DNA of 64,000 bases, from NCBI GenBank assembly GCA_963705255.1, contig OY970061.1, forward strand, positions 896,001 through 960,000, written 5' to 3'. Both the position numbers and the translations under genes were made by a program. The stretch comes from an uncultured Methanoregulaceae archaeon (GTDB lineage: Archaea; Halobacteriota; Methanomicrobia; Methanomicrobiales; Methanospirillaceae). The notes below the pieces were generated by a model. That model was given only the letters and a program-made list of their open reading frames with translations, had not been told where the DNA came from and did not search any database. Below, one piece after another: positions 34,265-51,399 of the stretch. Numbering within the stretch: the stretch's first letter is position 1; every line of letters starts with the position of its first letter.

Positions 34265-34270
34265 GTTATT

Positions 34271-35679
34271 ATGAGTATCGGGGTGTGCTATCCGGACAAA
34301 TATGCTGTTGAAGAGGCATTCCAGCTCCTCAAGGTGCCGTGGGACTGGTATGTGCCCGGACAGCAGTACGATGTCGTGATTGCCCGCAAAGCTGAAGTAC
34401 CGGGCTGCACGGAAAACCTCATCGATCTAACGGGCAATGACATTTTTAAAAAAATCAGCGATCTGCTCACGACCGGTCAGCCCCATCTCCACGAACCGGT
34501 GTGCGATCTCCTGATTGACGCTCTCCGGCAGGAACTGAAAAAATACACGATCCTTGTGGAGATCCCTCCCGCGCCATGGGGGCACCCCTACATGGTGGCC
34601 CTTACTCATGACGTTGATATCACTTCCGTCAGGGAATGCCGTATTCTCACGGTGGGCTATGCGGCATACCAGTGTTTTAAACAAGGGAATTTCCGTGCCG
34701 GCTTTAACCTGTTTTGTGCCAAGTGCGGGATTGGACCGGATCCCTGGTCACTCTTTGAACACTGGAAGACCCTTGAGAATCGGCTTGATGTTCGTTCAAC
34801 TTTCTTTTTCGTACCCCAAAAGGATGACCCGGGCGTGCGGGCGCACCCGTACCGGGCGGTCGTGTATGACATTAAAGAGAAAACGGATTTACGGCGCGAT
34901 CTGGATCATGGCGGATGGGAAGCCGGTGTTCACGGCATTGATAATTGGGCTGACGCACAACGCGGAAGACAGGAGATGGCAGCACTTGGGCTTGAGGGAA
35001 AGACGCCCGGCAACCGGACGCACTGGCTCCTTTTTGACCAGAACAGCTGGAAGGTACTGGATGAAGCGGGGTACTCGTACGACACAACATTCGGGTACAA
35101 TGACGATGCCGGTTTCCGTGCGGGTACCCTGCAGGTATACCGGCCGCGCACTGCACAGACCCTCCTGGAACTCCCGCTCCACATCCAGGACCTCGGGCTC
35201 GTTGGGAAATTCTGCTGGGCGCCCACTGACAATGGCTGGGTGAAAACACCGTGCATGCATCTCGATGAGCACGCGGCACGCATGTACTGTGACCGTATTT
35301 TTGATTATGCAAAAAAATTGGGGGGGCTGTGACGATACTCTGGCACTACGAGAACCTGACACCGCCACGGGACTGGTCCGGGCTCTACGCGGAACTGGTG
35401 AAAAGTGCCCAAGCTGACGATGCATGGGTGACGACTGCAGGAGCGGTGGTGGAGTGGTTTAAAGACCGGAGACGAGTCAAGATAAGCTGTAAAAATGAGA
35501 GAGACAGGCTCACCATCTCTGCGGAGGGTGGTCCCCCTCCCGGTTCTGTACCTCCATTAATGGTGAGAATACACAATCCTAATAATCGACAAATAAGCGT
35601 AAATACTGAATCAGACCCAAGGAGAGAGTATATCGACATCAAACTGAACATGAAGACAATTACGGTATTATTCTCATGA
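34271..35679 (+). CDS. Polysaccharide deacetylase-like protein (frameshift at G-run near 35320)
   Basis: LTHDVD, STFFF, EAGVHG, RTHWL, YDTT.G, LELPLHIQD, then TILWH in the next frame. Confidence 0.85.
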
Positions 35680-36377
35680 TCCTGCAAACAATTTTCCTGA
35701 AAATAAAAAGTCCTGCTGTGGCGGATTCCTGGTTCATGCATACTTCAGTTATGCAATACATTATGAAAATCTGCTTAAAATTTTTTAATTACCTTGCCCC
35801 GAAAACCCGTCTCTGCCAAAGGGTAAAGGCTGGATCTCTTGGAAAGGGAAATGAAATTCACCCGACTGCAATAATTGACTATGACCGGGTAATTATCGGA
35901 GATTTCTGTACTATTGAAAAAAATGTGGTAATTGAAAAAAATACAATTATCGGAAATCACGTAACCATCGGACAGGGAGTGGTGATCGGGTCTGAAGGGT
36001 TTGAATTACGGAGGATTGCGGGTGAAATCATACCGGTAGTCCATCTTGGCGGAGTCATCATTCACGACAACGTACATATCTGCCCTCATGCATGTATCGA
36101 TAAAAGCTCTCTTGGAGAATATACCGAAATAGGAGAATCATCGGTCATAATGGCTGGCGTCGAAGTCGGTCATGGAATAAAAATTGGACAACATGTAACC
36201 GTATCTGAAGGAACCATGATCGGGGGATATGCAAGGATTGGAAATCACGTAAAGATTGGCAAGCGCTGTTCGATAACAGATGGAATATCTCTGGGCGAAG
36301 ACGTGGTTATACCGGATTATTCTGTCGTGACCCGCGAGGTAAAGGGACCTTCGGGAGATGTTTCTCAATGTTCTTGA
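35676..36377 (+). CDS. LpxD-like hexapeptide-repeat N-acyltransferase 1
   Basis: Left-handed beta-helix repeats; GSEGF...HLGGVII.DNV.I....IDK...T.IG...EVGHG parallels the LpxD core. Start uncertain. Confidence 0.85.
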   Translation: MILQTIFLKIKSPAVADSWFMHTSVMQYIMKICLKFFNYLAPKTRLCQRVKAGSLGKGNEIHPTAIIDYDRVIIGDFCTIEKNVVIEKNTIIGNHVTIGQGVVIGSEGFELRRIAGEIIPVVHLGGVIIHDNVHICPHACIDKSSLGEYTEIGESSVIMAGVEVGHGIKIGQHVTVSEGTMIGGYARIGNHVKIGKRCSITDGISLGEDVVIPDYSVVTREVKGPSGDVSQCS

Positions 36378-36422
36378 AATGGGATTACATTTCAGGATTG
36401 AAATGAGTTTCAGAGGATATTT

Positions 36423-37302
36423 ATGAAATTATCAGATTTCCTGTCGGAAAAAACGGAAATAATCCGGGATGGCATTTTTTCGTCACTGGGGACATTGTTT
36501 TCACACTATCCGCAACAGATAGTATATGCAGTTCGGGAAAATGAGGTAAAAAAAATTATTGACAATCCCTCCATTTCCTGTGTAATCACAACACCTTCTC
36601 TAATTTCCAGGTTCCCTGACGGGTGGGGCATTGCATCAGCTCGGGATCCTCAATATTCATTTTATTCCCTTCAGGTCCGTGCTGAGCCAATACCCGGAAT
36701 TTGTACTTCAGCCTTTTGCCAACCGGATTTCATCATCAGCGAAAATTCATCCGAGCACAGTCATTTCTGCGCGCAGCGTATCTATCGGAAGAGACGTTGT
36801 TATCGAAAAAAACGTTATCATCCATGAACAGACAATCATCGACGAAGGATCTGTCATCAGATCCAACAGTGTCATCGGAAACTCCCCGTTACCTGCAGGT
36901 GGTGCGACAAATGGGCAAGTGGTCCAACCTTCTGGCGGGGTGCATCTCCACCGTGATGTGGATATTCATGCAAATACACAACTCCATCGTGCAATCTTCA
37001 AAGGGTATACAGAGGTTGGTGAACAGACAAAAATCGACAACCTCGATACTATCGGACAGGGAACAACAATTGGAAAACGATGTCTGATCTGTGCCGGAGT
37101 AACGGTAGGTGAATCAGTAATAATTGGGGATGATGCATGGATCGGCCCGAATGTTATTCTTGAAAATCAGATCAGGATAGGAAACAACGTTTACATCACA
37201 CTTGGTTCCAGGGTGCCCAATGACATCGATGACGATAAAGTCGTGAAAGATAATTACGCAATTGATCGGAAACGATTCAAGAAAGTCATACGAGGCATGT
37301 GA
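36423..37302 (+). CDS. LpxD-like hexapeptide-repeat N-acyltransferase 2 (frameshift near 36680)
   Basis: N-terminal LpxD-type domain (CVITT...DPQYSF) then IHPSTVIS, GGVHL..DV.I.AN, TKIDNL repeats. Confidence 0.85.
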
Positions 37303-37378
37303 CACGCATGATACAGATTTTAAAAAAACGCACGGTGTCCCTGTAACCCAAATACAGGAATGCGAGGTTAACCGATTT

Positions 37379-37747
37379 ATGCAGGACATCGGCATAGGTA
37401 CAGACATAGAAGAGATCAAGCGGTTTGAAAATCTCCGCGATCCTGCATTTGCCGCATTTCTCAGAAAGAATTTCACGGAGAACGAACTTGATTATTGTCT
37501 CTCAAAGGATGCTCCTGCCCCTCACCTTGCCGCACGGTATGCCGGCAAAGAAGCTGTGATAAAAGCGCTTTCCAGTCTGAACATCACCCATATATTTTAT
37601 CCTGCAATTGAGATCATAAACAACGAAACGGGTGTTCCGTACGTCAGGATTAATAAAGAGTACAACGAAAAAATGCATATAAAAATCAGTTTATCGCACA
37701 GTTCAGGAATGGCACTTGCATTTTGCATAATTTTACTCGAGGTATGA
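37379..37747 (+). CDS. acpS: Holo-[acyl-carrier-protein] synthase (phosphopantetheinyl transferase)
   Basis: GIGTDIEEI.RF, FT..E, AARYAGKEAVIKAL, G.P, ISLSHS. Confidence 0.93.
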   Translation: MQDIGIGTDIEEIKRFENLRDPAFAAFLRKNFTENELDYCLSKDAPAPHLAARYAGKEAVIKALSSLNITHIFYPAIEIINNETGVPYVRINKEYNEKMHIKISLSHSSGMALAFCIILLEV

Positions 37748-37748
37748 T

Positions 37749-37988
37749 ATGGCATCATTCGATGAGAATACGATAAAAAATATTTTTTGCGAAGTTCTCG
37801 GAATACCGGCACCGGAAGTTACCGACACGCTTGCCTATAACTCCTGCGCGCAGTGGGACTCCTTGAAACATCTCCAGATTGTGGCCATGATTGAAGAAAA
37901 ATTTGATATTGAGATTGATATGGATGATATCATCGCGATGGAAAATTACGGAAAAGTGAAGGAAATTCTCCATAAATATCTCACGTAA
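37749..37988 (+). CDS. Acyl carrier protein
   Basis: 79-aa acidic protein with WDSL phosphopantetheine-site motif and IEEKFDIEI; GAGGT upstream, 1 nt after the acpS stop. Confidence 0.92.
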   Translation: MASFDENTIKNIFCEVLGIPAPEVTDTLAYNSCAQWDSLKHLQIVAMIEEKFDIEIDMDDIIAMENYGKVKEILHKYLT

Positions 37989-37994
37989 CCGGTT

Positions 37995-39488
37995 ATGAAT
38001 TTCGTCGATTATCTCTTTGAACTGTGTCAAGATCCCCCAAAAGAGTGTATCCTATCCCGTGATGGCATCCTCACATACCGGGATCTGATATCCAAAGTTG
38101 ACGATCTCGCAGCATACCTGAATACAATCCTGGGAGGAGGAAACGAGTGCCTCCTGCTCTCGGAAAATACCCCGTTTTTTGTTATAGCCTATCTTGCGAT
38201 TATAAAGAGCGGGAACATGGCCCTGCTTGCAGAAACACGGATATCGGATGAACAGCTGGGAGTCATCTTCCGCGAATGTCATATCCAGGCATCATTTGTC
38301 CAGAAAAAATACCGGTCAAAGATCACAAACAACGGGAACGTATTTACCGAGGATCTCCTTCTGGTACTTCCGCACACAGAACGGTATATGAGCCCTCGCA
38401 TGGAGGACGATGATGTCGCAATCGTGATCTTCACCTCCGGGAGCACCGGCGCAAAGAAAGGCGTCATGCTCACGCATAAAAACCTGTGCGCCAACACGGG
38501 ATCGATAGTAAAGTACCTCGATCTGACATCGCACGACCGGATCTGCGCCACGCTCCCGTTCTTTTACTGCTATGGAGCATCGCTGCTGCATACCCACGTC
38601 AGGGCCGGCGGCAGCATCGTGCTCTCCAATAATATTTTCCTTGGCGGTGTCATACGGGATATCGATACCTTTTCCTGCACCGGATTTGCCGGTGTCCCGA
38701 GCACGTACCAGATCCTGATCAACAAGACCCCGTTTCTCAAAGAAAAACTCCCGACCCTCCGGTATATGATGCAGGCCGGTGGTCATCTGCCCGACAAGTA
38801 CATCCGATTGATCGCCGAAGCGTTCCCGGAAAAAAAGTTTTTTGTGATGTACGGCGCGACAGAAGCCACGGCCCGGCTTGCATATCTCCCCCCGGCACAG
38901 GTACTTACCCATATCGGTTCTATTGGAAAAGGCATCCCGGGCGTCACGCTCGAAGTACTCGACGAGAACGGGAAACCGGTACAACCCGGGGAGACCGGTG
39001 AGATCACCGCACGCGGTGACAATATCATGAAGGGCTATTATGGGGATCCAGAAGGTACGCAAAGCGTCATAAAAAACGGGCGGCTTTATACCGGGGATAT
39101 TGCCACCGTTGATGATGACGGGTATATCTATATCACAGGGCGGGCAAAAAATTTTATTAAATCCGGGGGGTACCGTATCTCCCCGAATGAAATCGAGGAT
39201 TTTATCTGTTCCCTGGACGGTGTCACCGGTTGTGTGGTGCTCGGGCTGCCAGATGAGATCATGGGCGAGGCTGTGGTTGCAGTTGTCCAGCCGGATAACG
39301 CCCCGGAAACGGCACTCAAAGAAAAGATCCTCACGCGGTGCACGCAGCACCTGCCATCCTACAAGATCCCAACCGCCATATATTTTGTCCGGGAGTTCCC
39401 GCTCAACGCATCCAACAAAGTGGACAGGCAGGCGATTGCGGCCTCAATTGTTGCCAAGCGGGAAAAAAAAGAAGGAGGATTACAATAA
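37995..39488 (+). CDS. AMP-dependent adenylation enzyme (acyl-CoA/acyl-ACP ligase)
   Basis: IFTSGSTGAKKGV, YGATE, YTGD, GR....IKSGG.RISP.EIE, NKVDR. Confidence 0.93.
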   Translation: MNFVDYLFELCQDPPKECILSRDGILTYRDLISKVDDLAAYLNTILGGGNECLLLSENTPFFVIAYLAIIKSGNMALLAETRISDEQLGVIFRECHIQASFVQKKYRSKITNNGNVFTEDLLLVLPHTERYMSPRMEDDDVAIVIFTSGSTGAKKGVMLTHKNLCANTGSIVKYLDLTSHDRICATLPFFYCYGASLLHTHVRAGGSIVLSNNIFLGGVIRDIDTFSCTGFAGVPSTYQILINKTPFLKEKLPTLRYMMQAGGHLPDKYIRLIAEAFPEKKFFVMYGATEATARLAYLPPAQVLTHIGSIGKGIPGVTLEVLDENGKPVQPGETGEITARGDNIMKGYYGDPEGTQSVIKNGRLYTGDIATVDDDGYIYITGRAKNFIKSGGYRISPNEIEDFICSLDGVTGCVVLGLPDEIMGEAVVAVVQPDNAPETALKEKILTRCTQHLPSYKIPTAIYFVREFPLNASNKVDRQAIAASIVAKREKKEGGLQ

Positions 39489-40615
39489 TGCCGAAAACCG
39501 AACCTGTCGCGACAAAGGACCCGACCCGGGGTGAACTCCTCAATCAGGCCCCGTACTTCTCGGAAGACCAGCAGAAAAACGAGTACCTCCTGCCGATCAT
39601 CAGGCAACAGCTAAAAACTGCCAGACACAACAACCGGCAGATTGATAATTTTTTCTCCAAACAGGGTATTAACATTAATGCCATTCAAAAACTGGAAGAT
39701 ATACCATATATCCCGGTACAGATGTTCAAGCTCTTCGATCTCAGGACCTGCCCGGAGCAGGAGATCGTAAAAGTCCTCCAGTCCAGCGGGACAACAGGCG
39801 GCACACCAAGCAGGATCCCGCTTGACAAAGCCACCACGTTAAACCAGATAAAAGCTCTCAAATGCATCCTATCTGAATACCTGGGGAAAAACCGGAAAAT
39901 ATTTCTTGTCATCGACCATGAAGGCATCAACAGCCCAAAAGTGGCGTTTTCCGCACGGACTGCCGGTGTCCGGGGCTTAAGCATCTATGCAAAAAAAACC
40001 TTTTACCTGCTCAGGGAGGAAGAGGGAAAACTTGTCCTGAATATGCCGGTTATCCGGGATATTGTCGAAAACTATTCGCACGAAGAGGTGTACGCATTCG
40101 GATTCACGTATATTATCTGGACCGTCTTTTACAAGCAGCTCAAAAAGGAGGGATTCCGGTTCTCCTTTGAGAACTTCATGCTGTTCCACGGTGGCGGCTG
40201 GAAGAAGATGCGGGATCTCGCGGTCTCAAAAGAGACGTTTTCAGAGACGATCGCCGCAATATTCGATACGCACCCGAACCGGATCCTGGATTTCTACGGG
40301 ATGGCCGAGCAGACTGGTATCATCTTTGTTGACTGCGAGTACGGCAACAAGCACGTGCCCTGCTTTTCCCAGGTCATCATCCGCGATCCATTCACACTTG
40401 AGCCCTGCGATATCGGCAAAACCGGGTTGATTGAGGTGATGAGCGTTCTTGCCGACAGTTATTACGACCAAGCGATCCTGACCGAGGATCTTGGCCTGCA
40501 GGTCGGTGTGGATGACTGTCCGTGCGGGCGCAAGGGCCGGTATTTCCGGTTTGTCTCGCGGGTGGAGAAAGCCGAGTTGCGCGGGTGCGGCGATACGTTC
40601 CGGGAGTCTCGCTGA
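39488..40615 (+). CDS. luxE: LuxE-family acyl-protein synthetase
   Basis: IPYIPVQMFK, SSGTTG, HGGGWKK, DFYGMAE, ILTEDLG, C-terminal ELRGC; TAATG coupling to the upstream gene. Confidence 0.88.
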   Translation: MPKTEPVATKDPTRGELLNQAPYFSEDQQKNEYLLPIIRQQLKTARHNNRQIDNFFSKQGININAIQKLEDIPYIPVQMFKLFDLRTCPEQEIVKVLQSSGTTGGTPSRIPLDKATTLNQIKALKCILSEYLGKNRKIFLVIDHEGINSPKVAFSARTAGVRGLSIYAKKTFYLLREEEGKLVLNMPVIRDIVENYSHEEVYAFGFTYIIWTVFYKQLKKEGFRFSFENFMLFHGGGWKKMRDLAVSKETFSETIAAIFDTHPNRILDFYGMAEQTGIIFVDCEYGNKHVPCFSQVIIRDPFTLEPCDIGKTGLIEVMSVLADSYYDQAILTEDLGLQVGVDDCPCGRKGRYFRFVSRVEKAELRGCGDTFRESR

Positions 40616-41919
40616 TGATTACCTGTTACCTTAGGGATGGAAAGTTTGAAAGGCAATCGTATCAGGATTTTGAGGAGATTGCCCGAAGTGTCGATACCTG
40701 CAGGGAAACCCTTGCTGCGATGCCGCTTGACGCCGTCATAAAAATCCTCGATGTGCTGGGAAAAAACGTACTCAAAAACCCGGAGATCAACACGCTCCCG
40801 GGAGTCAGTTATATCTCACTGTGGCTGCGCCGCGAGAACCTTGACCGGATCTGTCAGGTCAATTACTCCGATAAACGGTACCTCGATGGCTTTTGTAAAA
40901 ATGAGACAAATATCCTGATGATGGCACAGCCCCGGGGGATTGTATGCCACTGGATCGCGGCGAACATGCCGACCCTGGGATTCTTTTCGATTGTTCAGGC
41001 CCTCCTCTCAAAGAACGGCAGCATGGTTAAGATGCCTGAGGAGTACGTCCCGCTGATCCTGTCCATTCTCCGTGAATTCCCGGCAATTTCTGTAGATTAT
41101 GAGGGCACAACCTACTCAGGGAAAAAAGTGCTTGCCGCGATAGCTGTTGTAACCTTTGAAGGAAAATCCACGGAGGCCAGTGAGAAATTTTCCCTTGCCG
41201 CCGATTGCCGAATCATCTTTGGGGGAAGCGAAGCGATCCGCTCGATCTCGCGTCTTCCCTGCCGGGATCACTGCGAGACGATTATCTTTGGCCCGAAATA
41301 TTCGTTTGCCGTGTTCGATCGGGAATATATCGAATCGGATGGTTTTAAAAAATCCCTGGACCAGTTCGTAAAAGACATAGCAGTTTTTAACCAGATGGCA
41401 TGTTCTTCGCCGCATGTCCTGTTTCTGGTGAAAAGCCGGTACCCGCTGGATATGATAGTAGCGTGGCTGCGCGACTCCTTTGAGCGGCTGCCGGAGGCAC
41501 TCCGCAACCAGAAGATCTCGTCAGGCCTGTCGGTACATATTATTAATGCCCGGGCCCGGTACCTGTTGTCGGATGGGAAAAACTGCGTGGCATCCCATGA
41601 TCTGGGGTGGACTATCTTTATCGATCAGGATATCTGCCTGGAAGAGCCAATCCAGGGAAAATGCATTTTTACAAAAGAGATCACTACGGTGGATGAAGTA
41701 ATCCCCTTAGTAAACCGTAAGATCCAGGCAGTCTCGATCGGGATCCTCGACCCCGCAAAACGGGAATCATTTGCCAGGCAGGTCACGTGGGGGGGCGCGG
41801 ATCGGGTCGTCATTCCCGGGACTATGCACGACTTTATTCTGCCCTGGGACGGGATCATGACCCTCAATCGTCTGGTGCGATGGGTTATTCTGAGAGAGAA
41901 CCAGGGTTCGCAGGTTTGA
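40615..41919 (+). CDS. luxC: LuxC-family acyl-CoA/acyl-protein reductase
   Basis: PRGIVCHW.A.N, FGG.EAI, FGPKYS, NQMACSSPH (catalytic Cys), DRV, PWDG...L.RLVRW; TGATG coupling. Confidence 0.88.
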   Translation: MITCYLRDGKFERQSYQDFEEIARSVDTCRETLAAMPLDAVIKILDVLGKNVLKNPEINTLPGVSYISLWLRRENLDRICQVNYSDKRYLDGFCKNETNILMMAQPRGIVCHWIAANMPTLGFFSIVQALLSKNGSMVKMPEEYVPLILSILREFPAISVDYEGTTYSGKKVLAAIAVVTFEGKSTEASEKFSLAADCRIIFGGSEAIRSISRLPCRDHCETIIFGPKYSFAVFDREYIESDGFKKSLDQFVKDIAVFNQMACSSPHVLFLVKSRYPLDMIVAWLRDSFERLPEALRNQKISSGLSVHIINARARYLLSDGKNCVASHDLGWTIFIDQDICLEEPIQGKCIFTKEITTVDEVIPLVNRKIQAVSIGILDPAKRESFARQVTWGGADRVVIPGTMHDFILPWDGIMTLNRLVRWVILRENQGSQV

Positions 41920-42018
41920 TTAATATCAAACGCGGATTTTATTTCGCTGCAATTGCAAATGAGGTACCGGAATCCTTTTAATGATCTATAGGATGAGTAA
42001 GTTTGGGAGTGGTGGGAG

Positions 42019-42762
42019 ATGTTATTAAAAGGGAAAAATGCGGTAATAACCGGCTGTTTAAAAGGTATCGGCCGTTCGACATTGGATCTTTTTGCCCAGA
42101 ACGGGGCAAATGTCTGGGCATGTTGTCAGTATGAAAATGCCGATTTTGAGAAACACGTGGGAGAACTGGCAGCAAATAATAATGTGTCGATTACACCGGT
42201 TTATTTTGATTTCCTTGATCCGGAACAGATAAAAATAGCAGCTCATGCAATCAGAGAGTCAAAGCAACCTGTGGACATCCTTGTTAATGTTGCCGGTATG
42301 ACCTGTGATGCTTTGTTTCATATGACAACCATGGAGCAGATGAAAAAAGTTTTTGAAGTGAATTTTTTCTCCCAGATGCTTTTTACCCAGTACATCACCA
42401 AGAATATGATACGGCATAATTCCGGTAGTGTTATCAATATATCCTCCATATCTGCAATAGATGGTAATCCCGGGCAATTATCATATACTGCAAGTAAAGC
42501 TGCAGTTATCGGTGCAACAAAAACATTATCCGCCGAGTTGGCGGCATCCGGGATACGAGTTAATGCCATTGCCCCGGGCGTTATTAAAACAGATATGACA
42601 GAAAAACTGCCGGAAGAGGTCATGGCGAAATTTATGGCAAAAAGTGACCTTAAGCGCATGGGGCAACCGGCCGAAGTTGCAGAGGTCATTTTATTTTTAG
42701 CATCAGACCTGTCATCATATATTACCGGTCAGATAATCCGTGTCGATGGTGGAATAGGATAA
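42019..42762 (+). CDS. FabG-like short-chain dehydrogenase/reductase 1
   Basis: TGCLKGIG, NVAG, NISS, YTASK, VNAIAPG, VDGG. Confidence 0.92.
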   Translation: MLLKGKNAVITGCLKGIGRSTLDLFAQNGANVWACCQYENADFEKHVGELAANNNVSITPVYFDFLDPEQIKIAAHAIRESKQPVDILVNVAGMTCDALFHMTTMEQMKKVFEVNFFSQMLFTQYITKNMIRHNSGSVINISSISAIDGNPGQLSYTASKAAVIGATKTLSAELAASGIRVNAIAPGVIKTDMTEKLPEEVMAKFMAKSDLKRMGQPAEVAEVILFLASDLSSYITGQIIRVDGGIG

Positions 42763-42773
42763 AGGGTGAAAAA

Positions 42774-43514
42774 ATGCTGCTCAAGGATAAAAATATAATA
42801 ATCACGGGTTCTGCACGCGGAATCGGGAACGTCATACTTGAAACATTTGCCGCAAACGGGGCAAATGTTTGGGCTTGTGCACGTACGAAGACCGAAGAAT
42901 TTGAAGACAATGCACATGCGCTTTCTGAGAAATATCATGTGGAGATCTGGCCGGTCTATTTTGACCTGGTGGATCATGATCAGTTGAAGACCGCGGTAAA
43001 ATCAATTACTTCCGCAAAACGAACAGTTGATGCCCTTGTGAATAATGCCGGAGTGACATATAATGCATTGTTTCTCATGTCGCCCATAACAAAGATGCAT
43101 GAAGTATTTGAGGTAAATTTTTTTTCACCATTCGTATTCACACAATATATTGCTAAAACGATGATTCGGCAAAAAAAAGGGAGTATAATTAATATTTCCT
43201 CATCCGCAGGTATTGATGGTAATGCAGGTCGTTCTGTTTATGGTGCCAGCAAAGCAGCCGTTATTTGTGCAACAAAGGCAATGGCGGCAGAACTTGGCGA
43301 ATTCGGAGTGCGAGTAAATTCCATTGCACCCGGCATAACCCAGACGTCCATGATCTCCAGTATGACGGATAAAGTGATACAGGATACCATCCTTCAGACC
43401 GATATGAAACGTATTGGCAATCCTCATGATATTGCAAATACTGCTCTTTTTCTGGCATCAGATAAGTCATCATATTTGACCGGGCAAGTAATACGGGTGG
43501 ATGGCGGACTATAA
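42774..43514 (+). CDS. FabG-like short-chain dehydrogenase/reductase 2
   Basis: TGSARGIG, NNAG, YGASK, VNSIAPG, VDGG; paralog of the preceding gene. Confidence 0.92.
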   Translation: MLLKDKNIIITGSARGIGNVILETFAANGANVWACARTKTEEFEDNAHALSEKYHVEIWPVYFDLVDHDQLKTAVKSITSAKRTVDALVNNAGVTYNALFLMSPITKMHEVFEVNFFSPFVFTQYIAKTMIRQKKGSIINISSSAGIDGNAGRSVYGASKAAVICATKAMAAELGEFGVRVNSIAPGITQTSMISSMTDKVIQDTILQTDMKRIGNPHDIANTALFLASDKSSYLTGQVIRVDGGL

Positions 43515-43532
43515 TTTTTCTTTGTGTTAAAT

Positions 43533-44360
43533 ATGACTTCGAAAAACCAGATTATACAAAATATTGAGAAAATGGCAAACCGGATGCGCAAAAATGCGCT
43601 GGACCTAGCATTATCTGCAGGTAACAATGGTGCGCATCTTGGTTCAGGTTTGTCGATAATAGAAATAATGGCGGTTCTTTATGGGGGGATCATGAAAATC
43701 GATCCGAAAAATCCCCGCTGGGGGGAGAGGGACCGGTTTATTCTCAGTAAAGGGCACGGCACCTTGGGGTATTATACTGCCTTGGCTGAGGCGGGACTCA
43801 TCTCCTTTGAGGAACTTTCAACGTTCGAAAAAAACGGGGGATTTCTGCCAGGCCAGCCTGTCATGAATATGGATAAGGGCATTGAATTTTCAAGCGGCAG
43901 CCTAGGCCATGGCCTTTCACTGGGTGTAGGTGTGGCATTAGCTGGAAAGAAACGCGGCCAGAGTTATAAGGTTTATGTCTTAATGGGAGACGGGGAGTGT
44001 AATGAGGGATCAGTATGGGAAGCAGCGATGGCCGCAAAACATTATAAACTCTCAAACCTTGTCGCGATAATCGATGGAAATGACATGCAGTCAGATGGTG
44101 CAAGGTGTGATATTATGGCGGCAGACTATGAGACAATCTGGAAAGGGTTTGGCTGGGACGTCGCCACGGTAGATGGGCATAATGTGAGCAGTATATATGA
44201 AACTTTCCGTGCTGGTACAAGGACTGATATCCCCCGGGTAATTATTGCCAGGACCGTGAAAGGGAAGGGGGTTTCATTTATGGAATGCAATAACGAATGG
44301 CATCACAACCGGCTGACACAAGCTCAGTACGACGCGGCGATTAAGGAACTTGGTCCCTGA
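43533..44360 (+). CDS. Transketolase, N-terminal (TPP-binding) subunit
   Basis: HLG..LS, DRFILSKGH, GSLGHG, GDGE.NEG.VWEA, TVKGKGV, WH. Confidence 0.94.
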   Translation: MTSKNQIIQNIEKMANRMRKNALDLALSAGNNGAHLGSGLSIIEIMAVLYGGIMKIDPKNPRWGERDRFILSKGHGTLGYYTALAEAGLISFEELSTFEKNGGFLPGQPVMNMDKGIEFSSGSLGHGLSLGVGVALAGKKRGQSYKVYVLMGDGECNEGSVWEAAMAAKHYKLSNLVAIIDGNDMQSDGARCDIMAADYETIWKGFGWDVATVDGHNVSSIYETFRAGTRTDIPRVIIARTVKGKGVSFMECNNEWHHNRLTQAQYDAAIKELGP

Positions 44361-44372
44361 AACGAGCTTACT

Positions 44373-45356
44373 ATGATTCAAATTAATTCATTGAATGCAA
44401 GATTATGGTCGAAATTGGGACAGCAGGGAACATTCGGCATTACGATGCTTGAATTAGGGAGGGATCTAGAGAACCTGATTGTACTTTCGGCAGATTTATG
44501 TTTAACCTCCGGATTAGATCGTTTCCGTTTACAATTTCCTGAAAAATTTTTGAATGTGGGAATCGCTGAACAAAATCTGGTAGGTATCTCTGCGGGACTT
44601 GCAAAAGAGGGCTATATCGTTTTTGCCACAACCTTTGCGAATTTTGCCGCTATGCGCAGTTACGAACAGGTGCGGCTGAACATGGGATATATGGGTTTAA
44701 ATATTAAACTGGTGGGTCTTGGAAGCGGCTTTGCCATGGGAATGTTTGGCAACACGCACTATGGTATTGAAGACGTTGCGTTAATGCGTGCAATACCGGG
44801 GCTTTGTATACTCTCTCCTTCCGATTGTACGGAAGTTGTGAAAGCTACTCAAGCTGTTGCCAAGTATCCCCGTCCGATATATCTGAGACTCACCGGCATT
44901 CTGAACAACCCAATCGTTAATAAAGAAGATTACCCGTTTGAAATCGGGAAGGCGATTCCGCTGAAAAGTGGTTCGGATATTGCAATTATCGCTACAGGGT
45001 CGATGGTATATCATTCTCTCGTTGCAGCTAAACTGCTTGAATCCAAAGGAATCTCTGCTGCTGTCATCAACATGCATACGATAAAACCGCTCGATACTGA
45101 AATAATAAATGCTGCATGCAGGGACGTGAAACTTATCGTAACCGTGGAAGAACATACTGTCATCGGAGGTCTGGGGGGAGCGGTCGCGGAATATTTGAGT
45201 GGTAAGCCCCCGGGTCCTCGTCAACTTACCATCGGTGTTCCTGATGCATTTCAAAAAGCCGGGAATTATCAGTACCTGCTTGAACAAAATGGTCTCACCG
45301 GCCCGCAAATCGCTGAGAGAATGAGCTCCACTTTCAATATCCTTGTCAAATCCTGA
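44373..45356 (+). CDS. Transketolase, C-terminal subunit
   Basis: SADL, NVGIAEQN, THY.IED, YLRL, TIKPLD, TVEEH..IGGLG. Confidence 0.94.
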   Translation: MIQINSLNARLWSKLGQQGTFGITMLELGRDLENLIVLSADLCLTSGLDRFRLQFPEKFLNVGIAEQNLVGISAGLAKEGYIVFATTFANFAAMRSYEQVRLNMGYMGLNIKLVGLGSGFAMGMFGNTHYGIEDVALMRAIPGLCILSPSDCTEVVKATQAVAKYPRPIYLRLTGILNNPIVNKEDYPFEIGKAIPLKSGSDIAIIATGSMVYHSLVAAKLLESKGISAAVINMHTIKPLDTEIINAACRDVKLIVTVEEHTVIGGLGGAVAEYLSGKPPGPRQLTIGVPDAFQKAGNYQYLLEQNGLTGPQIAERMSSTFNILVKS

Positions 45357-45529: not shown

Positions 45530-46592
45530 ATGCATAGATATACCCTTGGCCTTTTTTCCAACATGTTTCCACCTGAGCCTCCAAGGAGGCAAAGCGGGGT
45601 GATCCTAACCGATACCACCCGGGGAATATTTGTTAAAAGAATGGTGGATGATCTCGTTCAGCACGATGTTATCGTAAAAATGGCCGTAAAAAAAAGCGGG
45701 TCTCTTACAGGTTATGTTCCATTCATCTATCAGTCCTTAATGCTGGTGCACGATAGCGATGTCGATATTATGCAGGCCGAATATATTCCCCACAGTGGTG
45801 TGGTACCAGCATTATTTAAAAGAAAAAACTGCCCACTCGGTACTGAAATTCCATGGGGACGATGCACGGATCTTCCCGTTCAAAAATTCATTTTTCATGT
45901 CAGTGACCCGTGCGATGATCCGTCGATCGGATTATATCCTGACATCCAGCGAAGAGTTACGATCAATCCTTATTTCAATCGGGGCGCACCCTGAAAAAAC
46001 TTCTGCCGTTCATACGGGTGTGGATACGAATTTTTTCCGGCCCGCCCCAAAGGAACCTCTTCGAAAGGATCTCGGTCTGCCTCCGGAGGACCCGGTCTTT
46101 CTCTTTATTGGGAGGCTGCATCCTTGGAAAGGGATCAATGAACTGATCAGCGTTGCGGGTATGTGCAGAGAATTCCGGTTCGTGTTCATTGGACCGGGGG
46201 CCATCCCCCCCCATCCGGAAAACTGCATATTTCTCGGTTCGAAATCCCCAGAAGAGGTCAGGATGTGGTATAATATATCTGACTGTCTTCTCCTTCCCTC
46301 ATATACGGAGGGATTCCCCACGGTCATCATGGAGGCATTCGCTTGTGGTATACCCGCTATTGCGACTTACGTTGGAGGTTGCCCGGAACTTGTGGAGCCA
46401 GAAAAGACGGGGTTGCTTGTTCCTGCTCGTGATGTTCCGGCGCTTCACGGAGCGGTGCAGTGGGTTGGAACGCATGCCGATGAGCGGATTCGGATGGGGA
46501 TTGCGGCAAGGGCCGTAGCAGAGGAGCGGTTCGATCACACCATAATGGTGCAAAAACTTATTGGCATCCACGAGAGTCTCATCCGGAAATGA
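45530..46592 (+). CDS. GT4 family glycosyltransferase (frameshift near 45840)
   Basis: HGDD, GVD, FIGRL..KG, LPSYTEGFP...MEA.ACG.P, VGG.PE. Confidence 0.9.
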
Positions 46593-47160
46593 CAATGTTT
46601 TACGGATGCCGCATGATGTCCTGACCTGAGATCTGATACTGCAGAAAAAAGTGTCGATGTATTGGCGTTCCCCGGACCAGACCACCTGTTCGAATGGCCG
46701 GAGTCGTACCGGAAACGCCGCCCCGGGTAATGGCTCCCGGGTAATTGAGGGGTTCAGGTAATCCACAGGGATCGTCCCCGTGAGAGTACCCCTGAGCATG
46801 TTCCGACAAGAATCGCGCAATCTCTGTGCAATTTCTACAGGGAGACCGGTGGTGATCTCTTCAACAAAATAGGGTCTTCTTATTGAGACTGACAATCCTT
46901 TGGATCTATCCAACTCAATGCAATGTACCTTTGAAAAAACATGGGATCAGGAGGCAATTGTTGCATATTCAGAACAATTTACCTAGAAACGGCTCTGCGA
47001 GAAGATCAATGCAATATACCAGTCTGCAGGACGAACCTCTCGTTTGGTTTACACGAATGCGAGAGGTAATGTGCTGAACAAAACCAAGGAATGCAATAAT
47101 GTGGACAGCAGGGGAGATCCTGGAGAATTCACTACGATAAGAATAAGAAAGTACAAGTAA

Positions 47161-48091
47161 TCAGCGATGGCTATACCAGTCAAGTGTTTTTGCCAGTCCC
47201 TGTTTTATTGAATATTCCGGGGCAAATTTTAATTTCGAACGTGCCCTGCTGACATCGGCAACGGAATGAAGGATGTCCCCTTTCCTCGGAGGAAGATAGT
47301 GCGGATCCAATGTGGAGCCGGTCAAATCGCGGAGCAAACCGACGAGTACGTTGAGAGAAATCTGTTCCCCTCCCGCGATGTTAAAAATTCCTTCAATACT
47401 GCTCTCCATACCCAGAATGTTTGCCCGGACCACGTCATCGATAAAAACAAAGTCCCGGGTTTGTTGTCCATCACCGAAAATGACCGTGGACTCGTTGTTC
47501 AGCATGCGGATGATAAACTTGGGAATTACTGCAGCATATTCGGAATGGGGATCCTGACGGTCACCAAACACATTGAAATAACGCAGGCAGAGGGTGGGCA
47601 GACCATACAGGGACGAAAAAACGCTGCAATAGTATTCACCGGTAATTTTTGTTATTGCATAGGGGGAGAGTGGGGCCGGGGGCATATCCTCTCTTTTGGG
47701 TAACGCAGGGCTGTCCCCGTATACAGCAGCGGATGAGGCAAACACCACTTTTTTTATTCCACTATCCCGAGCGGCAAGAAGGATGTTTAACGTACCAGGT
47801 ACTGTTCACCTCATGCGTGTGTACAGGATCTCTGAGGGATTGTTGTACTGATGTAATTGCAGCCTCATGAAAAACCCCGTCCGCACCGCTGAACGTGTTT
47901 TTCAAAAGAACCGGGTCGGTCACACTCCCGCTCACAAAAGTGACGGCGCCTGAATTGTGGAGCATGAGGATATTCTCTAGTGTGCCACTGGACAGATCGT
48001 CAATAATTACTACTTCATCGCCCCGTTGTGCTAAAAAATCCACGATATGGGAACCGATAAATCCGCAGCCACCGGTTATAACATACTTCAT
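47161..48091 (-). CDS. NAD-dependent NDP-sugar epimerase/dehydratase (frameshift near 47797)
   Basis: TGGCGFIGSH, HEAA, ASSAAVYG, YAITK, RYFNVFG, GDGQQTRDF. Confidence 0.93.
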
Positions 48092-51345: not shown

Positions 51346-51399
51346 TAGGCGCAAAATTTTTTCCTGTATACTATTTCAGGTTCTTATCACAATAAGTTG

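What the first reader, a model, noticed from the sequence alone, without database searches (positions are those of the whole stretch)
34271..45356. ACP-dependent acyl-building operon (AcpS-ACP-ligase-LuxE-LuxC-2xSDR-transketolase, plus LpxD-like enzymes and a deacetylase) in an archaeal glycosylation island
Seen: twelve co-oriented genes, several translationally coupled (ATGA, TAATG, TGATG), with intact motifs: ACP WDSL, AcpS KEA, ligase TSGSTG, LuxE RGC, LuxC ACSS. No ketosynthase, LuxD or LuxAB is in the window. Established: archaea generally lack the ACP/AcpS machinery. LuxE/LuxC activate acids and reduce them to aldehydes. LpxD N-acylates a UDP-amino sugar from acyl-ACP. The Vibrio cholerae O1 rfbK/L/N genes (ACP, ligase, LuxC/E-like) are proposed to make the tetronate N-acyl group of its O-antigen. 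Inference: this is a pathway that builds an unusual hydroxylated or chain-extended acyl unit on a dedicated ACP and transfers it to a de-N-acetylated sugar of the archaellin, S-layer or EPS glycan. I know of no characterised archaeal example.
Basis: partly seen in the sequence, partly recalled or inferred. Interest (0 to 1): 0.9.

Follow-up and report, generated by a model that had tools for sequence, protein, structure and literature searches.

The report
Carrier-protein sugar-acylation operon in a methanogen
A methanogenic archaeon carries a twelve-gene operon, complete with its own acyl carrier protein and the enzyme that activates it, that most likely builds an unusual hydroxylated acyl group and puts it on a surface sugar in place of the usual acetyl group; it is the archaeal branch of a gene set long seen but never tested in bacteria.

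Summary
Window 34271-45356 (+) encodes twelve co-oriented genes: a CE4-fold deacetylase, two LpxD-like transferases, AcpS, ACP, an AMP-ligase, LuxE-like, LuxC-like, two SDRs and a split transketolase.

Two genes look broken in the window. Independent metagenome contigs show these are single-base assembly errors.

The locus is not chimeric. Six independent Methanoregula-type contigs show the same top6A-to-TK arrangement.

The core AcpS-ACP-ligase-LuxE-LuxC(-SDR) is colinear in about 30 archaeal loci from at least seven lineages. It forms one LuxE clade, apart from the bacterial cassettes of flagellin glycosylation islands, which carry no AcpS.

In this genome the only ACP, AcpS, LuxE and transketolase genes are the ones in this operon.

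Elsewhere in archaea the core sits beside three unrelated deacetylase families, amino-sugar aminotransferases, NeuB, and LpxD- or PglD-type transferases.

Best reading (about 0.6): the operon makes a hydroxy-acyl-ACP, probably from a small dicarboxylate. The transketolase-like enzyme, which lacks the sugar-phosphate pocket, may extend it. The acyl group then replaces the N-acetyl of a glycan sugar.

No step has been tested biochemically, in archaea or in bacteria. This is a new archaeal variant of a known but uncharacterised kind. Interest is moderate, about 0.55.

The parts
34271..35679 (+). CE4-fold (VimE-like) sugar de-N-acetylase, about 469 aa. In the window it is split by a 1-base assembly error near 35319 into 34271-35332 and 35329-35679.
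   Evidence: NCBIfam VimE, E 2.4e-11, for the intact L003 orthologue. AF2 model pLDDT 95.7. Foldseek top hits are CE4 deacetylases 3rxz, HP0310 and ArnD. It is a single ORF in L003 and L022. Contigs of X1 and X3 carry +G behind 35319.
35676..36377 (+). LpxD-like left-handed beta-helix acyltransferase Hex1 (233 aa). It keeps the His that aligns with E. coli LpxD His239.
   Evidence: Pfam Hexapep 2.9e-26. NCBIfam LpxD 1.4e-32, below the cut-off. His column. ATGA overlap with the deacetylase.
36384..37302 (+). LpxD-like paralogue Hex2 (about 300 aa) with Gln in place of the catalytic His. Split in the window by a 1-base error near 36676. The start codon is uncertain; the first in-frame ATG in the window is 36423.
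   Evidence: tblastn with the L003 307-aa orthologue. -1 at 36676 in contigs of X1, X3 and X5. NCBIfam LpxD. Best solved-structure (PDB) match is LpxD 2iu8. Gln column.
37379..37747 (+). AcpS-type 4'-phosphopantetheinyl transferase (122 aa). It is the only one in the genome.
   Evidence: Pfam ACPS 1e-15. NCBIfam pantethn_trn 7e-22. One genome-wide hit.
37749..37988 (+). Acyl carrier protein (79 aa, DSL serine). It is the only PP-binding protein in the genome.
   Evidence: Pfam PP-binding 2.8e-9. One genome-wide hit.
37995..39488 (+). AMP-forming ligase (497 aa), the presumed acid:ACP loader.
   Evidence: Pfam AMP-binding 5e-66. The nearest solved homologues (PDB) are an NRPS A domain and feruloyl-, oxalate- and malonyl-CoA ligases. 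Ligase-LuxE fusions exist.
39488..40615 (+). LuxE-like acyl-protein synthetase (375 aa) with the C-terminal acylation Cys.
   Evidence: Pfam LuxE 1e-53. 7xc6_E E 1.9e-25, with the Cys aligned. NCBIfam LuxE equivalog 87 bits against a cut-off of 550.
40615..41919 (+). LuxC-like acyl-thioester reductase (434 aa) with the catalytic Cys.
   Evidence: Pfam LuxC 1e-61. 7xc6_A E 4e-9, with the Cys aligned. TGATG overlap with LuxE.
42019..42762 (+). FabG-like SDR 1 (247 aa).
   Evidence: Pfam adh_short_C2 1e-60. NCBIfam 3-oxoacyl-ACP reductase, below the equivalog cut-off.
42774..43514 (+). FabG-like SDR 2 (246 aa).
   Evidence: Pfam adh_short_C2 2.5e-57. NCBIfam.
43524..44360 (+). Transketolase-like N-terminal subunit (ThDP/Mg site kept, His100 changed to Gln). 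It is the only Transketolase_N in the genome.
   Evidence: Pfam 1e-43. One genome-wide hit. Residue table.
44373..45356 (+). Transketolase-like C-terminal subunit. The canonical sugar-phosphate binders are replaced: R358Q, S385A, H461G, R520G, and also D469F.
   Evidence: Pfam Transket_pyr and Transketolase_C. Alignment to E. coli TktA.
45530..61517 (.). Context: the rest of the glycosylation island. It holds GT4, GT2 x3, GT11, GT4, wecB, a Wzx-like flippase, GDP-Man 4,6-dehydratase and GDP-fucose synthase. An archaellin gene follows at 61819-62436 (-).
   Evidence: Pfam. NCBIfam wecB and Fcl.

Best explanation
This is an operon that remodels the N-acyl group of a surface-glycan sugar, using its own carrier protein.

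Proposed steps:
1. AcpS converts the operon's own apo-ACP to holo-ACP. The host has no other AcpS or ACP.
2. The AMP-ligase loads a small carboxylic acid onto the ACP. This is most likely a C4-C5 dicarboxylate from central metabolism.
3. LuxE adenylates the free distal carboxylate and passes it, through its C-terminal Cys, to LuxC. LuxC reduces it to an aldehyde.
4. An SDR reduces the aldehyde to an omega-hydroxyl. This is the same logic as was proposed for the 2,4-dihydroxybutyryl ('tetronate') group of Vibrio cholerae O1.
5. In this Methanoregula-type version, a transketolase-like ThDP enzyme without a phosphate-binding pocket, plus a second SDR, probably add and reduce a C2 unit on that aldehyde. 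The result would be a longer polyhydroxy-acyl-ACP.
6. The CE4-fold deacetylase removes the N-acetyl group from a sugar that is nucleotide- or lipid-linked. The His-bearing LpxD-like transferase Hex1 then moves the acyl group from the ACP to the freed amine. The His-less paralogue Hex2 may act as its partner.
7. The modified sugar goes into the archaellin, S-layer or EPS glycan made by the adjacent island.

Shown here: gene content, conserved catalytic residues, dedicated ACP and AcpS, conserved synteny, the linked families, and the fusions.
Inferred: every chemical step, the starting acid, the product, the acceptor sugar and the target glycan.
For: Domains and catalytic residues are intact.

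The genome has exactly one hit each for ACPS, PP-binding, LuxE and Transketolase_N, all inside the operon. It has no ketosynthase or LuxD.

Synteny across archaeal loci:
- AcpS was found in 27 of 32 archaeal loci and ACP in 28 of 32, in the same order.
- Four of the five AcpS misses are contigs cut off upstream.
- The fifth, L027, has AcpS elsewhere in the locus.

Sample of 151 genomes of the order:
- 13 have a full-length LuxE with E <= 1e-49.
- All 13 also have AcpS.
- In 12 of them AcpS lies within 3 kb of LuxE.

Sugar-modifying genes found next to the archaeal core:
- CE4 Polysacc_deac_1 directly upstream of AcpS in L013 and L014.
- PIG-L deacetylase directly after the SDR in 4 Methanomassiliicoccus loci.
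- The VimE-like deacetylase in 7 sources.
- LpxD-like Hex in 12 of 33 archaeal sources and 0 of 48 bacterial loci.
- DegT aminotransferase, NeuB plus a cytidylyltransferase, and a PglD-like transferase.

Fusions found: ligase-LuxE, LuxE-LuxC and LuxE-Fe-ADH.

Transketolase:
- It occurs only inside the cassette in G086 and G094, and is absent from G017, G032 and G052.
- It keeps the cofactor and catalytic residues but loses S385, H461, R520 and D469 in all 12 pairs examined. The roles of these residues are recalled from the TktA literature.
- Core enzymes of TK-plus and TK-minus loci are 81-84% identical (window against L004). The TK step therefore looks like an add-on after a shared start.

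Precedent for 'deacetylate, then re-acylate': VimE/VimA (PMC7468200, passages).

A. piscicola AH-3 carries the bacterial cassette and has a 376.14 Da pseudaminic acid derivative plus an unknown 102 Da moiety (PMC7874193, passages). 102.03 Da equals C4H6O3, a dihydroxybutanoyl residue (my arithmetic).
Against: - No biochemical or genetic test exists for any homologue, archaeal or bacterial. The V. cholerae pathway itself rests on homology only.
- The ligase's substrate cannot be read from its sequence. Its best solved homologues span NRPS A domains and aromatic, fatty and small-dicarboxylate ligases.
- No aminotransferase lies in this island, so the acceptor must be an ordinary N-acetyl sugar or one made elsewhere. 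DegT and NeuB genes lie about 440 kb away.
- Hex1 and Hex2 score below the LpxD cut-offs and could use acyl-CoA.
- Hex2 lacks the catalytic His.
- The loss of the phosphate pocket in the transketolase rests on a low-identity alignment and on recalled residue roles. The enzyme could work on another part of the glycan.
- The 102 Da mass also fits O-methylglyceroyl.
- Only 12 of 33 archaeal sources have an LpxD-like gene within 10 kb, so the transfer step is not uniform.
Confidence: 0.6

Rival explanations
1. A fatty-acid reductase and lipid module. The ligase and ACP capture a long-chain fatty acid. LuxE/LuxC make a fatty aldehyde or alcohol, or the LpxD-like enzymes N-acylate a glucosamine with a long chain. 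The product would be a lipid-anchored 'liposugar', as was guessed for the bacterial flagellin islands.
For: LuxC and LuxE are homologues of the luminescence fatty-acid reductase (7xc6). LpxD normally transfers long hydroxyacyl chains. Authors of the Aeromonas and Enterobacteriaceae papers suggested a lipid component (passages). The top NCBIfam hit of the ligase is a long-chain fatty-acid CoA ligase subfamily, below its cut-off.
Against: - The genome has no ketosynthase or LuxD, and so no evident source of fatty acids.
- LuxE and LuxC score far below the lux equivalog cut-offs: 87 against 550 and 73 against 750.
- Two adenylating enzymes for one carrier fit a dicarboxylate better.
- Fusion to an alcohol dehydrogenase and linkage to transketolase-like genes fit small polar chemistry.
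- The only related product known is the C4 tetronate of V. cholerae O1 (PMC3441752, passages).
Confidence: 0.12
2. The genes are neighbours but belong to two separate functions. The AcpS-to-transketolase genes make a free small molecule, such as an aldehyde, polyol or other metabolite. The deacetylase and LbH transferases are ordinary acetyl-CoA-dependent sugar enzymes of the glycan island.
For: - There is a 76-nt gap between Hex2 and AcpS and a 99-nt gap between LuxC and SDR1.
- GC content is mosaic, from 0.41 to 0.53 between modules.
- Many archaeal cores have no LpxD-like gene nearby (21 of 33 sources).
- LbH N-acetyltransferases are common in archaeal glycan pathways (general knowledge).
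Against: - The core always sits inside or beside sugar-modifying genes, in archaea and in bacteria.
- Deacetylases of three unrelated families abut it in different lineages.
- The deacetylase-Hex-Hex-AcpS order is kept in 7 sources, and Hex directly precedes AcpS in Methanomassiliicoccus loci (L024, L029).
- A carrier-bound product needs a transferase to leave the ACP, and no thioesterase is present.
Confidence: 0.12
3. A Dlt-like or aminoacyl decoration. The ligase and ACP carry an amino acid or a similar unit, which is transferred as an ester or amide to a polymer. LuxE and LuxC would serve another substrate.
For: The ligase also matches DltA and amino-acid adenylation domains (182-192 bits). 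Its best match among solved structures (PDB) is an NRPS A domain. The VimA precedent adds an amino acid.
Against: LuxE, LuxC and the SDR are inseparable from ACP and ligase in all loci and are even fused to the ligase. No DltB- or DltD-like genes were seen among the 12 genes.
Confidence: 0.06
4. An assembly artefact (a bacterial insert joined at top6A) or a decaying pseudogene cluster.
For: - GC drops after top6A.
- There are frameshifts in the window in three genes of the island.
- Some related strains in the same metagenomes diverge right after top6A (loose ends at 34235 and 34257).
Against: - The same top6A-deacetylase junction and gene order appear in six independent contigs (L003, L006, L007, L009, L010, L022).
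- The genome is one 2.6 Mb contig.
- Independent contigs show all frameshifts to be 1-base consensus errors, and the essential top6B has them too.
- The LuxE tree puts the window inside an archaeal clade.
Confidence: 0.02

Closest known systems
Vibrio cholerae O1 tetronate genes wbeK-O / rfbK-O (VC0248-VC0252). These are proposed to make the 3-deoxy-L-glycero-tetronyl N-acyl group of perosamine.
   Same: The same parts list: ACP, AMP-ligase, LuxE-like, LuxC-like, an alcohol-forming reductase and a hexapeptide acyltransferase, all in a glycan locus. The domain assignments of the Vibrio proteins are recalled from Stroeher/Morona 1995, which I did not see. That VC0248-0252 are the tetronate genes, and that the pathway rests on homology, comes from PMC3441752 (passages).
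   Different: - Here an SDR stands in place of the Fe-alcohol dehydrogenase, although LuxE-Fe-ADH fusions exist in other archaea.
- LuxE and LuxC are separate genes.
- The operon has its own AcpS, a deacetylase instead of a dedicated amino-sugar pathway, two LpxD-like proteins, and a transketolase-like pair.
The 'fatty-acid-synthesis-like' genes of Aeromonas group II and Enterobacteriaceae flagellin glycosylation islands (ACP, FabG, AMP-ligase, LuxE, LuxC).
   Same: They are homologous: LuxE is 38-43% identical. They share the same five families, sit in a glycan locus next to the filament protein gene, and their function is untested (PMC7874193, PMC4875605; passages).
   Different: - The bacterial order is ACP-SDR-ligase-LuxE-LuxC with no AcpS (0 of 47 classified bacterial loci). 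The archaeal order is AcpS-ACP-ligase-LuxE-LuxC-SDR.
- The bacterial sets sit with pse genes, Maf and a GNAT. This one sits with a CE4-fold deacetylase and LpxD-like transferases.
- The two groups fall on opposite sides of a branch with 100% support in the LuxE tree.
The Wbp/Vim pathway of Porphyromonas gingivalis and Tannerella. VimE (CE4) removes the 2-N-acetyl group of a diacetamido uronic acid, and VimA re-acylates it with Ser or Gly.
   Same: The same logic of deacetylating a finished N-acetyl sugar and then re-acylating it. The deacetylase here is a distant VimE relative (E 2.4e-11) with a CE4 fold.
   Different: The acyl donor here is presumably an acyl-ACP and the transferase is LbH-type, not FemAB/GNAT-type. 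The VimE equivalog cut-off is not met (42.9 against 440 bits). The substrate sugar is unknown.
The LpxC/LpxD steps of lipid A synthesis.
   Same: De-N-acetylation of a UDP-sugar followed by N-acylation from acyl-ACP by a left-handed beta-helix enzyme. Hex1 and Hex2 match LpxD best.
   Different: They score below the LpxD cut-offs (113 and 120 against 242.5 and 207 bits). Hex1 lacks the N-terminal domain (233 aa against 341 aa). The deacetylase has a CE4 fold and is not LpxC. There is no lipid A in archaea.
The LuxCDE fatty-acid reductase of luminous bacteria (7xc6).
   Same: Homologous LuxE and LuxC with both acyl-accepting cysteines conserved. They probably form a complex that reduces a carboxylate to an aldehyde.
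   Different: There is no LuxD. They score far below the lux equivalog thresholds. They are coupled to a ligase, an ACP and glycan genes.

Membership tests
ACP/ligase/LuxE/LuxC glycan N-acyl cassette (V. cholerae wbeK-O type; Aeromonas FGI type) | ACP, AMP-ligase, LuxE-like and LuxC-like genes adjacent and co-oriented | tested here: met
   Pfam. The order is conserved in 80 loci.
ACP/ligase/LuxE/LuxC glycan N-acyl cassette (V. cholerae wbeK-O type; Aeromonas FGI type) | Location within a surface-glycan biosynthesis locus | tested here: met
   Glycosyltransferases, a flippase, wecB, GDP-fucose genes and an archaellin gene lie downstream.
ACP/ligase/LuxE/LuxC glycan N-acyl cassette (V. cholerae wbeK-O type; Aeromonas FGI type) | An aldehyde or ketone reductase (Fe-ADH or FabG-like SDR) in the set | tested here: met
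   Two FabG-like SDRs. There is no Fe-ADH here, but LuxE-Fe-ADH fusions occur in relatives.
ACP/ligase/LuxE/LuxC glycan N-acyl cassette (V. cholerae wbeK-O type; Aeromonas FGI type) | Sequence orthology to the V. cholerae proteins and a tetronate product | not testable with these tools
The product needs chemistry.
Lux fatty-acid reductase (LuxCDE) | LuxC and LuxE reaching the NCBIfam equivalog scores | tested here: not met
   87.1 against 550 bits and 72.6 against 750 bits.
Lux fatty-acid reductase (LuxCDE) | A LuxD acyl-transferase is present | tested here: not met
   PF02273 has 0 hits in the genome, which is 89.5% complete.
Lux fatty-acid reductase (LuxCDE) | Acyl-accepting cysteines of LuxE (C-terminal) and LuxC | tested here: met
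   Alignments to 7xc6_E and 7xc6_A.
Type II fatty-acid or polyketide synthase | A ketosynthase is present | tested here: not met
   PF00109 gave only a 51-residue, 23.5-bit hit at 2.11 Mb, outside the window.
LpxD (UDP-3-O-acyl-GlcN N-acyltransferase) | Score over the TIGR01853 / PRK00892 cut-offs | tested here: not met
   Hex1 scores 113 and 110 bits; Hex2 (L003) scores 107 and 120 bits. The cut-offs are 242.5 and 207.
LpxD (UDP-3-O-acyl-GlcN N-acyltransferase) | The catalytic His (E. coli His239; its role is recalled) | tested here: inconclusive
   Hex1 has His. Hex2 has Gln. Across 20 homologues the column holds 11 His, 8 Gln and 1 Pro.
CE4 / VimE-type sugar deacetylase | CE4 (NodB-like) fold | tested here: met
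   AF2 model pLDDT 95.7. Foldseek 3rxz E 1.7e-10, TM-target 0.64; also HP0310, ArnD and chitin deacetylases.
CE4 / VimE-type sugar deacetylase | VimE equivalog score | tested here: not met
   42.9 bits against a cut-off of 440. There is no Pfam Polysacc_deac_1 hit.
CE4 / VimE-type sugar deacetylase | Metal-binding and catalytic Asp/His residues | tested here: inconclusive
   H113, D114, H221 and H251 are invariant in 40 homologues. I did not superpose them on a solved CE4 active site.
Transketolase (EC 2.2.1.1) | ThDP/Mg-binding and catalytic residues (H26, H66, D155, N185, H261, E411, H473 of E. coli TktA) | tested here: met
   All are kept in the window pair.
Transketolase (EC 2.2.1.1) | Sugar-phosphate binding residues (R358, S385, H461, R520) and D469 | tested here: not met
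   The window has Q, A, G, G and F at these positions. S385, H461, R520 and D469 are replaced in 12 of 12 cassette-linked pairs. The roles of these residues are recalled.

The most novel reading that the evidence does not exclude
The transketolase-like ThDP enzyme extends a carrier-protein-tethered omega-aldehyde, made by LuxE and LuxC, by a two-carbon ketol unit, and the SDRs then reduce it. Chain extension on an ACP would then be done by ThDP chemistry instead of a ketosynthase. This would give methanogens, which have no fatty-acid synthase, a sugar-like polyhydroxy-acyl group that replaces N-acetyl on an archaellin or S-layer glycan sugar. Strains with and without the transketolase module would differ by C2H4O2 (60.02 Da) on that sugar.
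Probability: 0.2. Interest if true: 0.8.

Novelty: new variant of a known kind. Interest (0 to 1): 0.55.

Why it matters

In my samples:
- AcpS occurs in 27 of 151 sampled Methanomicrobiales genomes.
- In 13 of those it accompanies a full-length cassette-type LuxE, and in 12 of the 13 it lies within 3 kb of that gene.

So the main use of carrier-protein chemistry in these methanogens appears to be glycan decoration, not lipid synthesis.

The cassette family has lacked a proven product since it was first proposed for the cholera O1 antigen. The archaeal branch adds three things:
- Clean genetic backgrounds, with one ACP, one AcpS and no FAS.
- Natural strain pairs with and without the transketolase module.
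- Several cultured carriers.

If confirmed, it would add a new class of N-acyl substituents to archaeal surface glycans, and possibly a new ThDP-based chain extension on a carrier protein.

Tried and rejected
- Expression data: the look-up of sequencing runs listed no RNA holder, so nothing can be said about transcription.
- Bridging the top6A junction with reads: the pieces of X1 that read laying listed do not include one spanning 34264-34271, and 121 pieces were not shown. I relied on the six independent loci instead.
- Sequence search of the Protein Data Bank (solved structures) with the deacetylase gave nothing. Pfam gave nothing for it or for five homologues. The fold search resolved the question.
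- Lombard et al. 2012 (PubMed 22718911) is not held. I used the same authors' review instead.
- A comparison with V. cholerae WbeK-O sequences was not possible.
- Literature searches for an archaeal characterisation:
  - 'archaea + acyl carrier protein + LuxE + LuxC' found 2 papers, both bacterial.
  - 'acyl-protein synthetase + acyl-CoA reductase + acyl carrier protein + glycan' found the same 2 papers.
  - 'Methanoregula + acyl carrier protein' found 5 papers, none on this cassette judging by title and abstract.
- Phylum-wide LuxE tally: 29 of 401 genomes hit, but only 10 hits are full-length with E <= 2e-43. G091 (6e-35) is ambiguous. The rest are C-terminal partial matches to multi-copy proteins of about 460 aa, probably other adenylate-forming enzymes, so I did not count them as cassettes.
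- Complex prediction was not used. Carrier-enzyme pairs and LuxC-LuxE would pass by likeness to solved structures.
- The pseudogene reading of the split genes was rejected.

Full report
WHAT IS THERE

The window is positions 896001-960000 of a single 2.60 Mb contig. On the + strand, directly after hisS, top6B and top6A, lie twelve co-oriented genes. The evidence for each is below (Pfam; NCBIfam).

| Gene | Coordinates | Main evidence |
|---|---|---|
| Deacetylase | 34271-35679 | No Pfam family. NCBIfam VimE, E 2.4e-11 for the intact orthologue. |
| Hex1, LpxD-like | 35676-36377 | Hexapep; LpxD is the best family. |
| Hex2, LpxD-like | about 36384-37302 | Hexapep; LpxD is the best family. |
| AcpS | 37379-37747 | Pfam ACPS |
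| ACP | 37749-37988 | Pfam PP-binding |
| AMP-ligase | 37995-39488 | Pfam AMP-binding |
| LuxE-like | 39488-40615 | Pfam LuxE |
| LuxC-like | 40615-41919 | Pfam LuxC |
| SDR1, SDR2 (FabG-like) | 42019-42762, 42774-43514 | adh_short_C2 |
| Split transketolase | 43524-44360, 44373-45356 | Transketolase_N; Transket_pyr and Transketolase_C |

The acyl-accepting cysteines of LuxE and LuxC align with those of the solved LuxC-LuxE complex 7xc6. The overlaps ATGA, TAATG and TGATG are real.

Downstream, up to 61.5 kb, lie six glycosyltransferases, wecB, a Wzx-like flippase and the GDP-fucose genes. An archaellin gene follows.

THE BROKEN GENES ARE ASSEMBLY ERRORS

- In the window the deacetylase and Hex2 are each split into two frames. 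A downstream GT4 is split as well, and the middle of top6B is garbled.
- Relatives have single ORFs.
- The break in the deacetylase lies in an A7/G7 run.
- Contigs of four public metagenome runs, laid on the window, carry exactly the compensating indels: +G behind 32448 and -1 at 32600 in top6B, +G behind 35319, -1 at 36676, and -1 at 45839.
- The twelve genes are therefore intact in nature.

THE LOCUS IS NOT A CHIMERA, AND NOT A ONE-OFF

A scan of one genome per species returned 126 relatives of the LuxE protein, of which the best 80 were kept. I compared all window proteins with those loci by tblastn and clustered all their ORFs.

- Six independent contigs of Methanoregula-type genomes (L003, L006, L007, L009, L010, L022) carry top6A-deacetylase-Hex1-Hex2-AcpS-ACP-ligase-LuxE. 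The order continues through LuxC, the SDR(s) and the transketolase pair in L003, L009, L010 and L022. L007's contig ends just after LuxE, and L006 has an unclustered 387-aa ORF where LuxC should be.
- The core AcpS-ACP-ligase-LuxE-LuxC-SDR is colinear in the archaeal loci. AcpS was found in 27 of 32 and ACP in 28 of 32. Four of the five AcpS misses are truncated contigs, and L027 has AcpS elsewhere in the locus.
- The lineages carrying it are Methanoregula, Methanocalculus, Methanogenium, Methanoculleus, Methanosphaerula, Methanospirillum, Methanohalophilus, Methanomassiliicoccus, Thermoplasmata, Altiarchaeia, Woesearchaeota, Aenigmatarchaeota and Nanohaloarchaea.
- Bacterial loci (Aeromonas, Marinomonas and others; LuxE 37-44% identical) have the order ACP-SDR-ligase-LuxE-LuxC and no AcpS.
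- The only 'bacterial' locus with AcpS is an unclassified bin, L021, which sits inside the archaeal clade.

I built a LuxE tree of 77 rows, dropping 1 of 78 as shorter than 300 aa (quick IQ-TREE). All archaeal rows fall in one clade (SH-aLRT 97) with a Bdellovibrionales sequence as sister, opposite 46 bacterial rows (100). Inside the clade the branching does not follow taxonomy, which suggests exchange among archaea. The tree is unrooted, so I do not claim a direction of transfer.

HOW COMMON IT IS

- Order sample: 15 of 151 genomes of the order hit LuxE, in 10 of 33 genera, and 13 of these hits are full-length. AcpS is in 27 of the 151.
- All 13 full-length LuxE genomes have AcpS, and in 12 it lies within 3 kb of LuxE. 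Thirteen AcpS-positive genomes lack LuxE.
- Own genus: 3 of 13 genomes, including this one, have the cassette.
- Phylum sample: 29 of 401 genomes hit LuxE, but only 10 hits are full-length cassette-type.
- This genome: the operon holds the only ACPS, PP-binding, LuxE and Transketolase_N genes. There is no ketosynthase or LuxD.

WHAT THE NEIGHBOURS SAY

Across archaea the core sits beside sugar-modifying genes:

- a DegT aminotransferase directly upstream of AcpS (L004, L011, L012) or within two genes upstream (L023), and further upstream in the Methanomassiliicoccus loci L024 and L028;
- NeuB (L011) and a cytidylyltransferase (L004, L011);
- a PglD-like transferase (L023);
- a CE4 Polysacc_deac_1 deacetylase directly upstream of AcpS (L013, L014);
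- a PIG-L deacetylase directly after the SDR (four Methanomassiliicoccus loci);
- the VimE-like deacetylase (seven sources);
- LpxD-like transferases (12 of 33 archaeal sources, 0 of 48 bacterial loci).

Three unrelated deacetylase families at the same cassette are the strongest comparative argument for a 'remove acetyl, add something else' function. The P. gingivalis Wbp/Vim pathway is a published precedent for that logic (PMC7468200, passages).

The deacetylase here belongs to a large family with no Pfam model: 3262 representatives at E <= 1e-3 and no Pfam hit. Its model (pLDDT 95.7) matches CE4 deacetylases, including ArnD, which acts on a lipid-linked amino sugar.

THE ACYL-BUILDING STEPS

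- Fusions of ligase-LuxE, LuxE-LuxC and LuxE-Fe-alcohol dehydrogenase exist. These enzymes therefore work on one substrate, and an aldehyde is reduced to an alcohol.
- Two adenylating enzymes for one carrier fit a dicarboxylate. One carboxyl goes to the ACP, and the other is reduced.
- That is the route proposed, from homology only, for the 2,4-dihydroxybutyryl group of V. cholerae O1. PMC3441752 (passages) supports the gene set and its homology-only status. The domain details are recalled.
- The ligase's solved relatives (PDB) include oxalate- and malonyl-CoA ligases, but also NRPS and aromatic-acid ligases. This is only a weak hint.
- A. piscicola AH-3, which has the bacterial cassette, carries a 376.14 Da pseudaminic acid derivative and an unidentified 102 Da moiety (PMC7874193, passages). 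By my arithmetic 102.03 Da is C4H6O3, and 376.15 Da is Pse5Ac7Ac with one acetyl exchanged for it. O-methylglyceroyl fits equally well.

THE TRANSKETOLASE MODULE

- The SDR-SDR-TKN-TKC block is a separate module. It also joins the cassette in Methanospirillum, Methanogenium, Izemoplasma, Bacteroidales and Clostridium loci.
- Of five related genomes, two have a transketolase, and in both it lies inside the cassette. Three have none at all. It is therefore not a housekeeping enzyme here.
- I aligned it to E. coli TktA. All 12 cassette-linked pairs keep the cofactor and catalytic residues.
- They replace S385 (by A or G), H461 (by G, A or S), R520 (by G) and D469 (by F or S). The window also has R358Q and H100Q.
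- In the TktA literature (recalled) these residues bind the substrate phosphate and the 2-hydroxyl of the acceptor. The pattern therefore points to a non-phosphorylated, non-sugar aldehyde acceptor.
- Core enzymes of loci with and without the module are 81-84% identical (window against L004). The starting acid is probably the same, and the module is a later elaboration.

THE TRANSFERASES

Hex1 keeps the His that aligns with the catalytic His239 of E. coli LpxD. Hex2 has Gln there. This split holds in every locus that has the pair: of 20 homologues, 11 have His, 8 have Gln and 1 has Pro. Hex2 may be a non-catalytic partner. This is unexplained.

COMPARISON AND NOVELTY

The closest known systems are:
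- the V. cholerae O1 tetronate genes;
- the untested 'fatty-acid-like' genes of flagellin glycosylation islands;
- the Wbp/Vim pathway;
- the LpxC/LpxD steps;
- LuxCDE.

The archaeal version differs in five ways:
- it carries its own AcpS;
- its gene order is different;
- it has a CE4-fold deacetylase with no Pfam family;
- it has a pair of LpxD-like proteins, one with and one without the catalytic His;
- it has a transketolase-like enzyme without a phosphate pocket.

I found no paper on the archaeal cassette (searches; supplements were closed). Earlier notes of this scan describe the same cassette family in many bacteria, including versions with their own PPTase and with transketolase-like genes. 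They agree with this reading but are not independent evidence.

VERDICT

This is a new archaeal variant of a known but uncharacterised kind, of moderate interest.

Noticed in passing
window 32448, 32600, 35319, 36676, 45839, 46788: The assembly carries single-base indel errors, several at homopolymers. They garble top6B and split the deacetylase, Hex2 and a GT4. Independent contigs carry the compensating bases. The 89.5% completeness estimate probably reflects such errors genome-wide.
   Followed up: yes
window 36384-37302; L003 6898-7821 and 8 further loci: The second LpxD-like protein of each pair has Gln (Pro in L007) where LpxD has its catalytic His. The first of each pair keeps His. The pairing is conserved in Methanoregula-type and Methanospirillum loci. 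It may be a catalytic and non-catalytic heteromer.
   Followed up: partly
G003, G014, G020, G023, G053, G068, G076, G106, G109, G113, G117, G141, G147 (order sample): Thirteen Methanomicrobiales genomes have an AcpS-type gene but no LuxE. In three genomes of the window's own genus the AcpS lies in 236-264 aa open frames. Other carrier-protein systems therefore exist in methanogens.
   Followed up: no
G000:C1 about 452-478 kb: A second glycan locus in the same genome holds two NeuB genes and DegT aminotransferases, one of them apparently frame-split. It would give nonulosonic-acid capacity, about 440 kb from the cassette.
   Followed up: no
window 34235-34257 (end of top6A): Contigs of related strains in runs X2 and X3 diverge from the window right at the 3' end of top6A. 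The variable island therefore begins exactly there, and some co-occurring strains have something else at this site. One X3 contig also skips 85 bases (41928-42014) in the LuxC-SDR1 spacer.
   Followed up: no
L021 (MAG labelled 'bacterium'): Its LuxE sits inside the archaeal clade and its cassette includes AcpS. It is either a misbinned archaeal contig or a transfer back to a bacterium.
   Followed up: no
P0129, P0133, P0134 (for example a Hermodarchaeota MAG): LuxE fused to an iron-containing alcohol dehydrogenase (734 aa) in archaea. P0122 of Methanohalophilus profundi is a ligase-LuxE fusion (858 aa).
   Followed up: partly
window 34271-45356: GC content is mosaic by module: deacetylase 0.53, Hex1-2 0.43, AcpS-ACP 0.41, ligase/LuxE/LuxC 0.51-0.52, SDRs 0.42, transketolase 0.46. 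The flank is 0.55. This suggests the operon was assembled from parts with different histories.
   Followed up: partly
phylum sample, families f10 and f12 (for example G209, G186): Multi-copy proteins of about 455-480 aa match only the C-terminal half of the LuxE model (E 1e-17 to 1e-28). They are probably another adenylate-forming family and not this cassette.
   Followed up: no
PMC7874193 (A. piscicola AH-3 flagellin glycan): The unidentified terminal 102 Da moiety and the 376.14 Da pseudaminic acid derivative both fit a C4H6O3 acyl group (dihydroxybutanoyl or O-methylglyceroyl). This would link the bacterial cassette to a tetronate-like product.
   Followed up: partly
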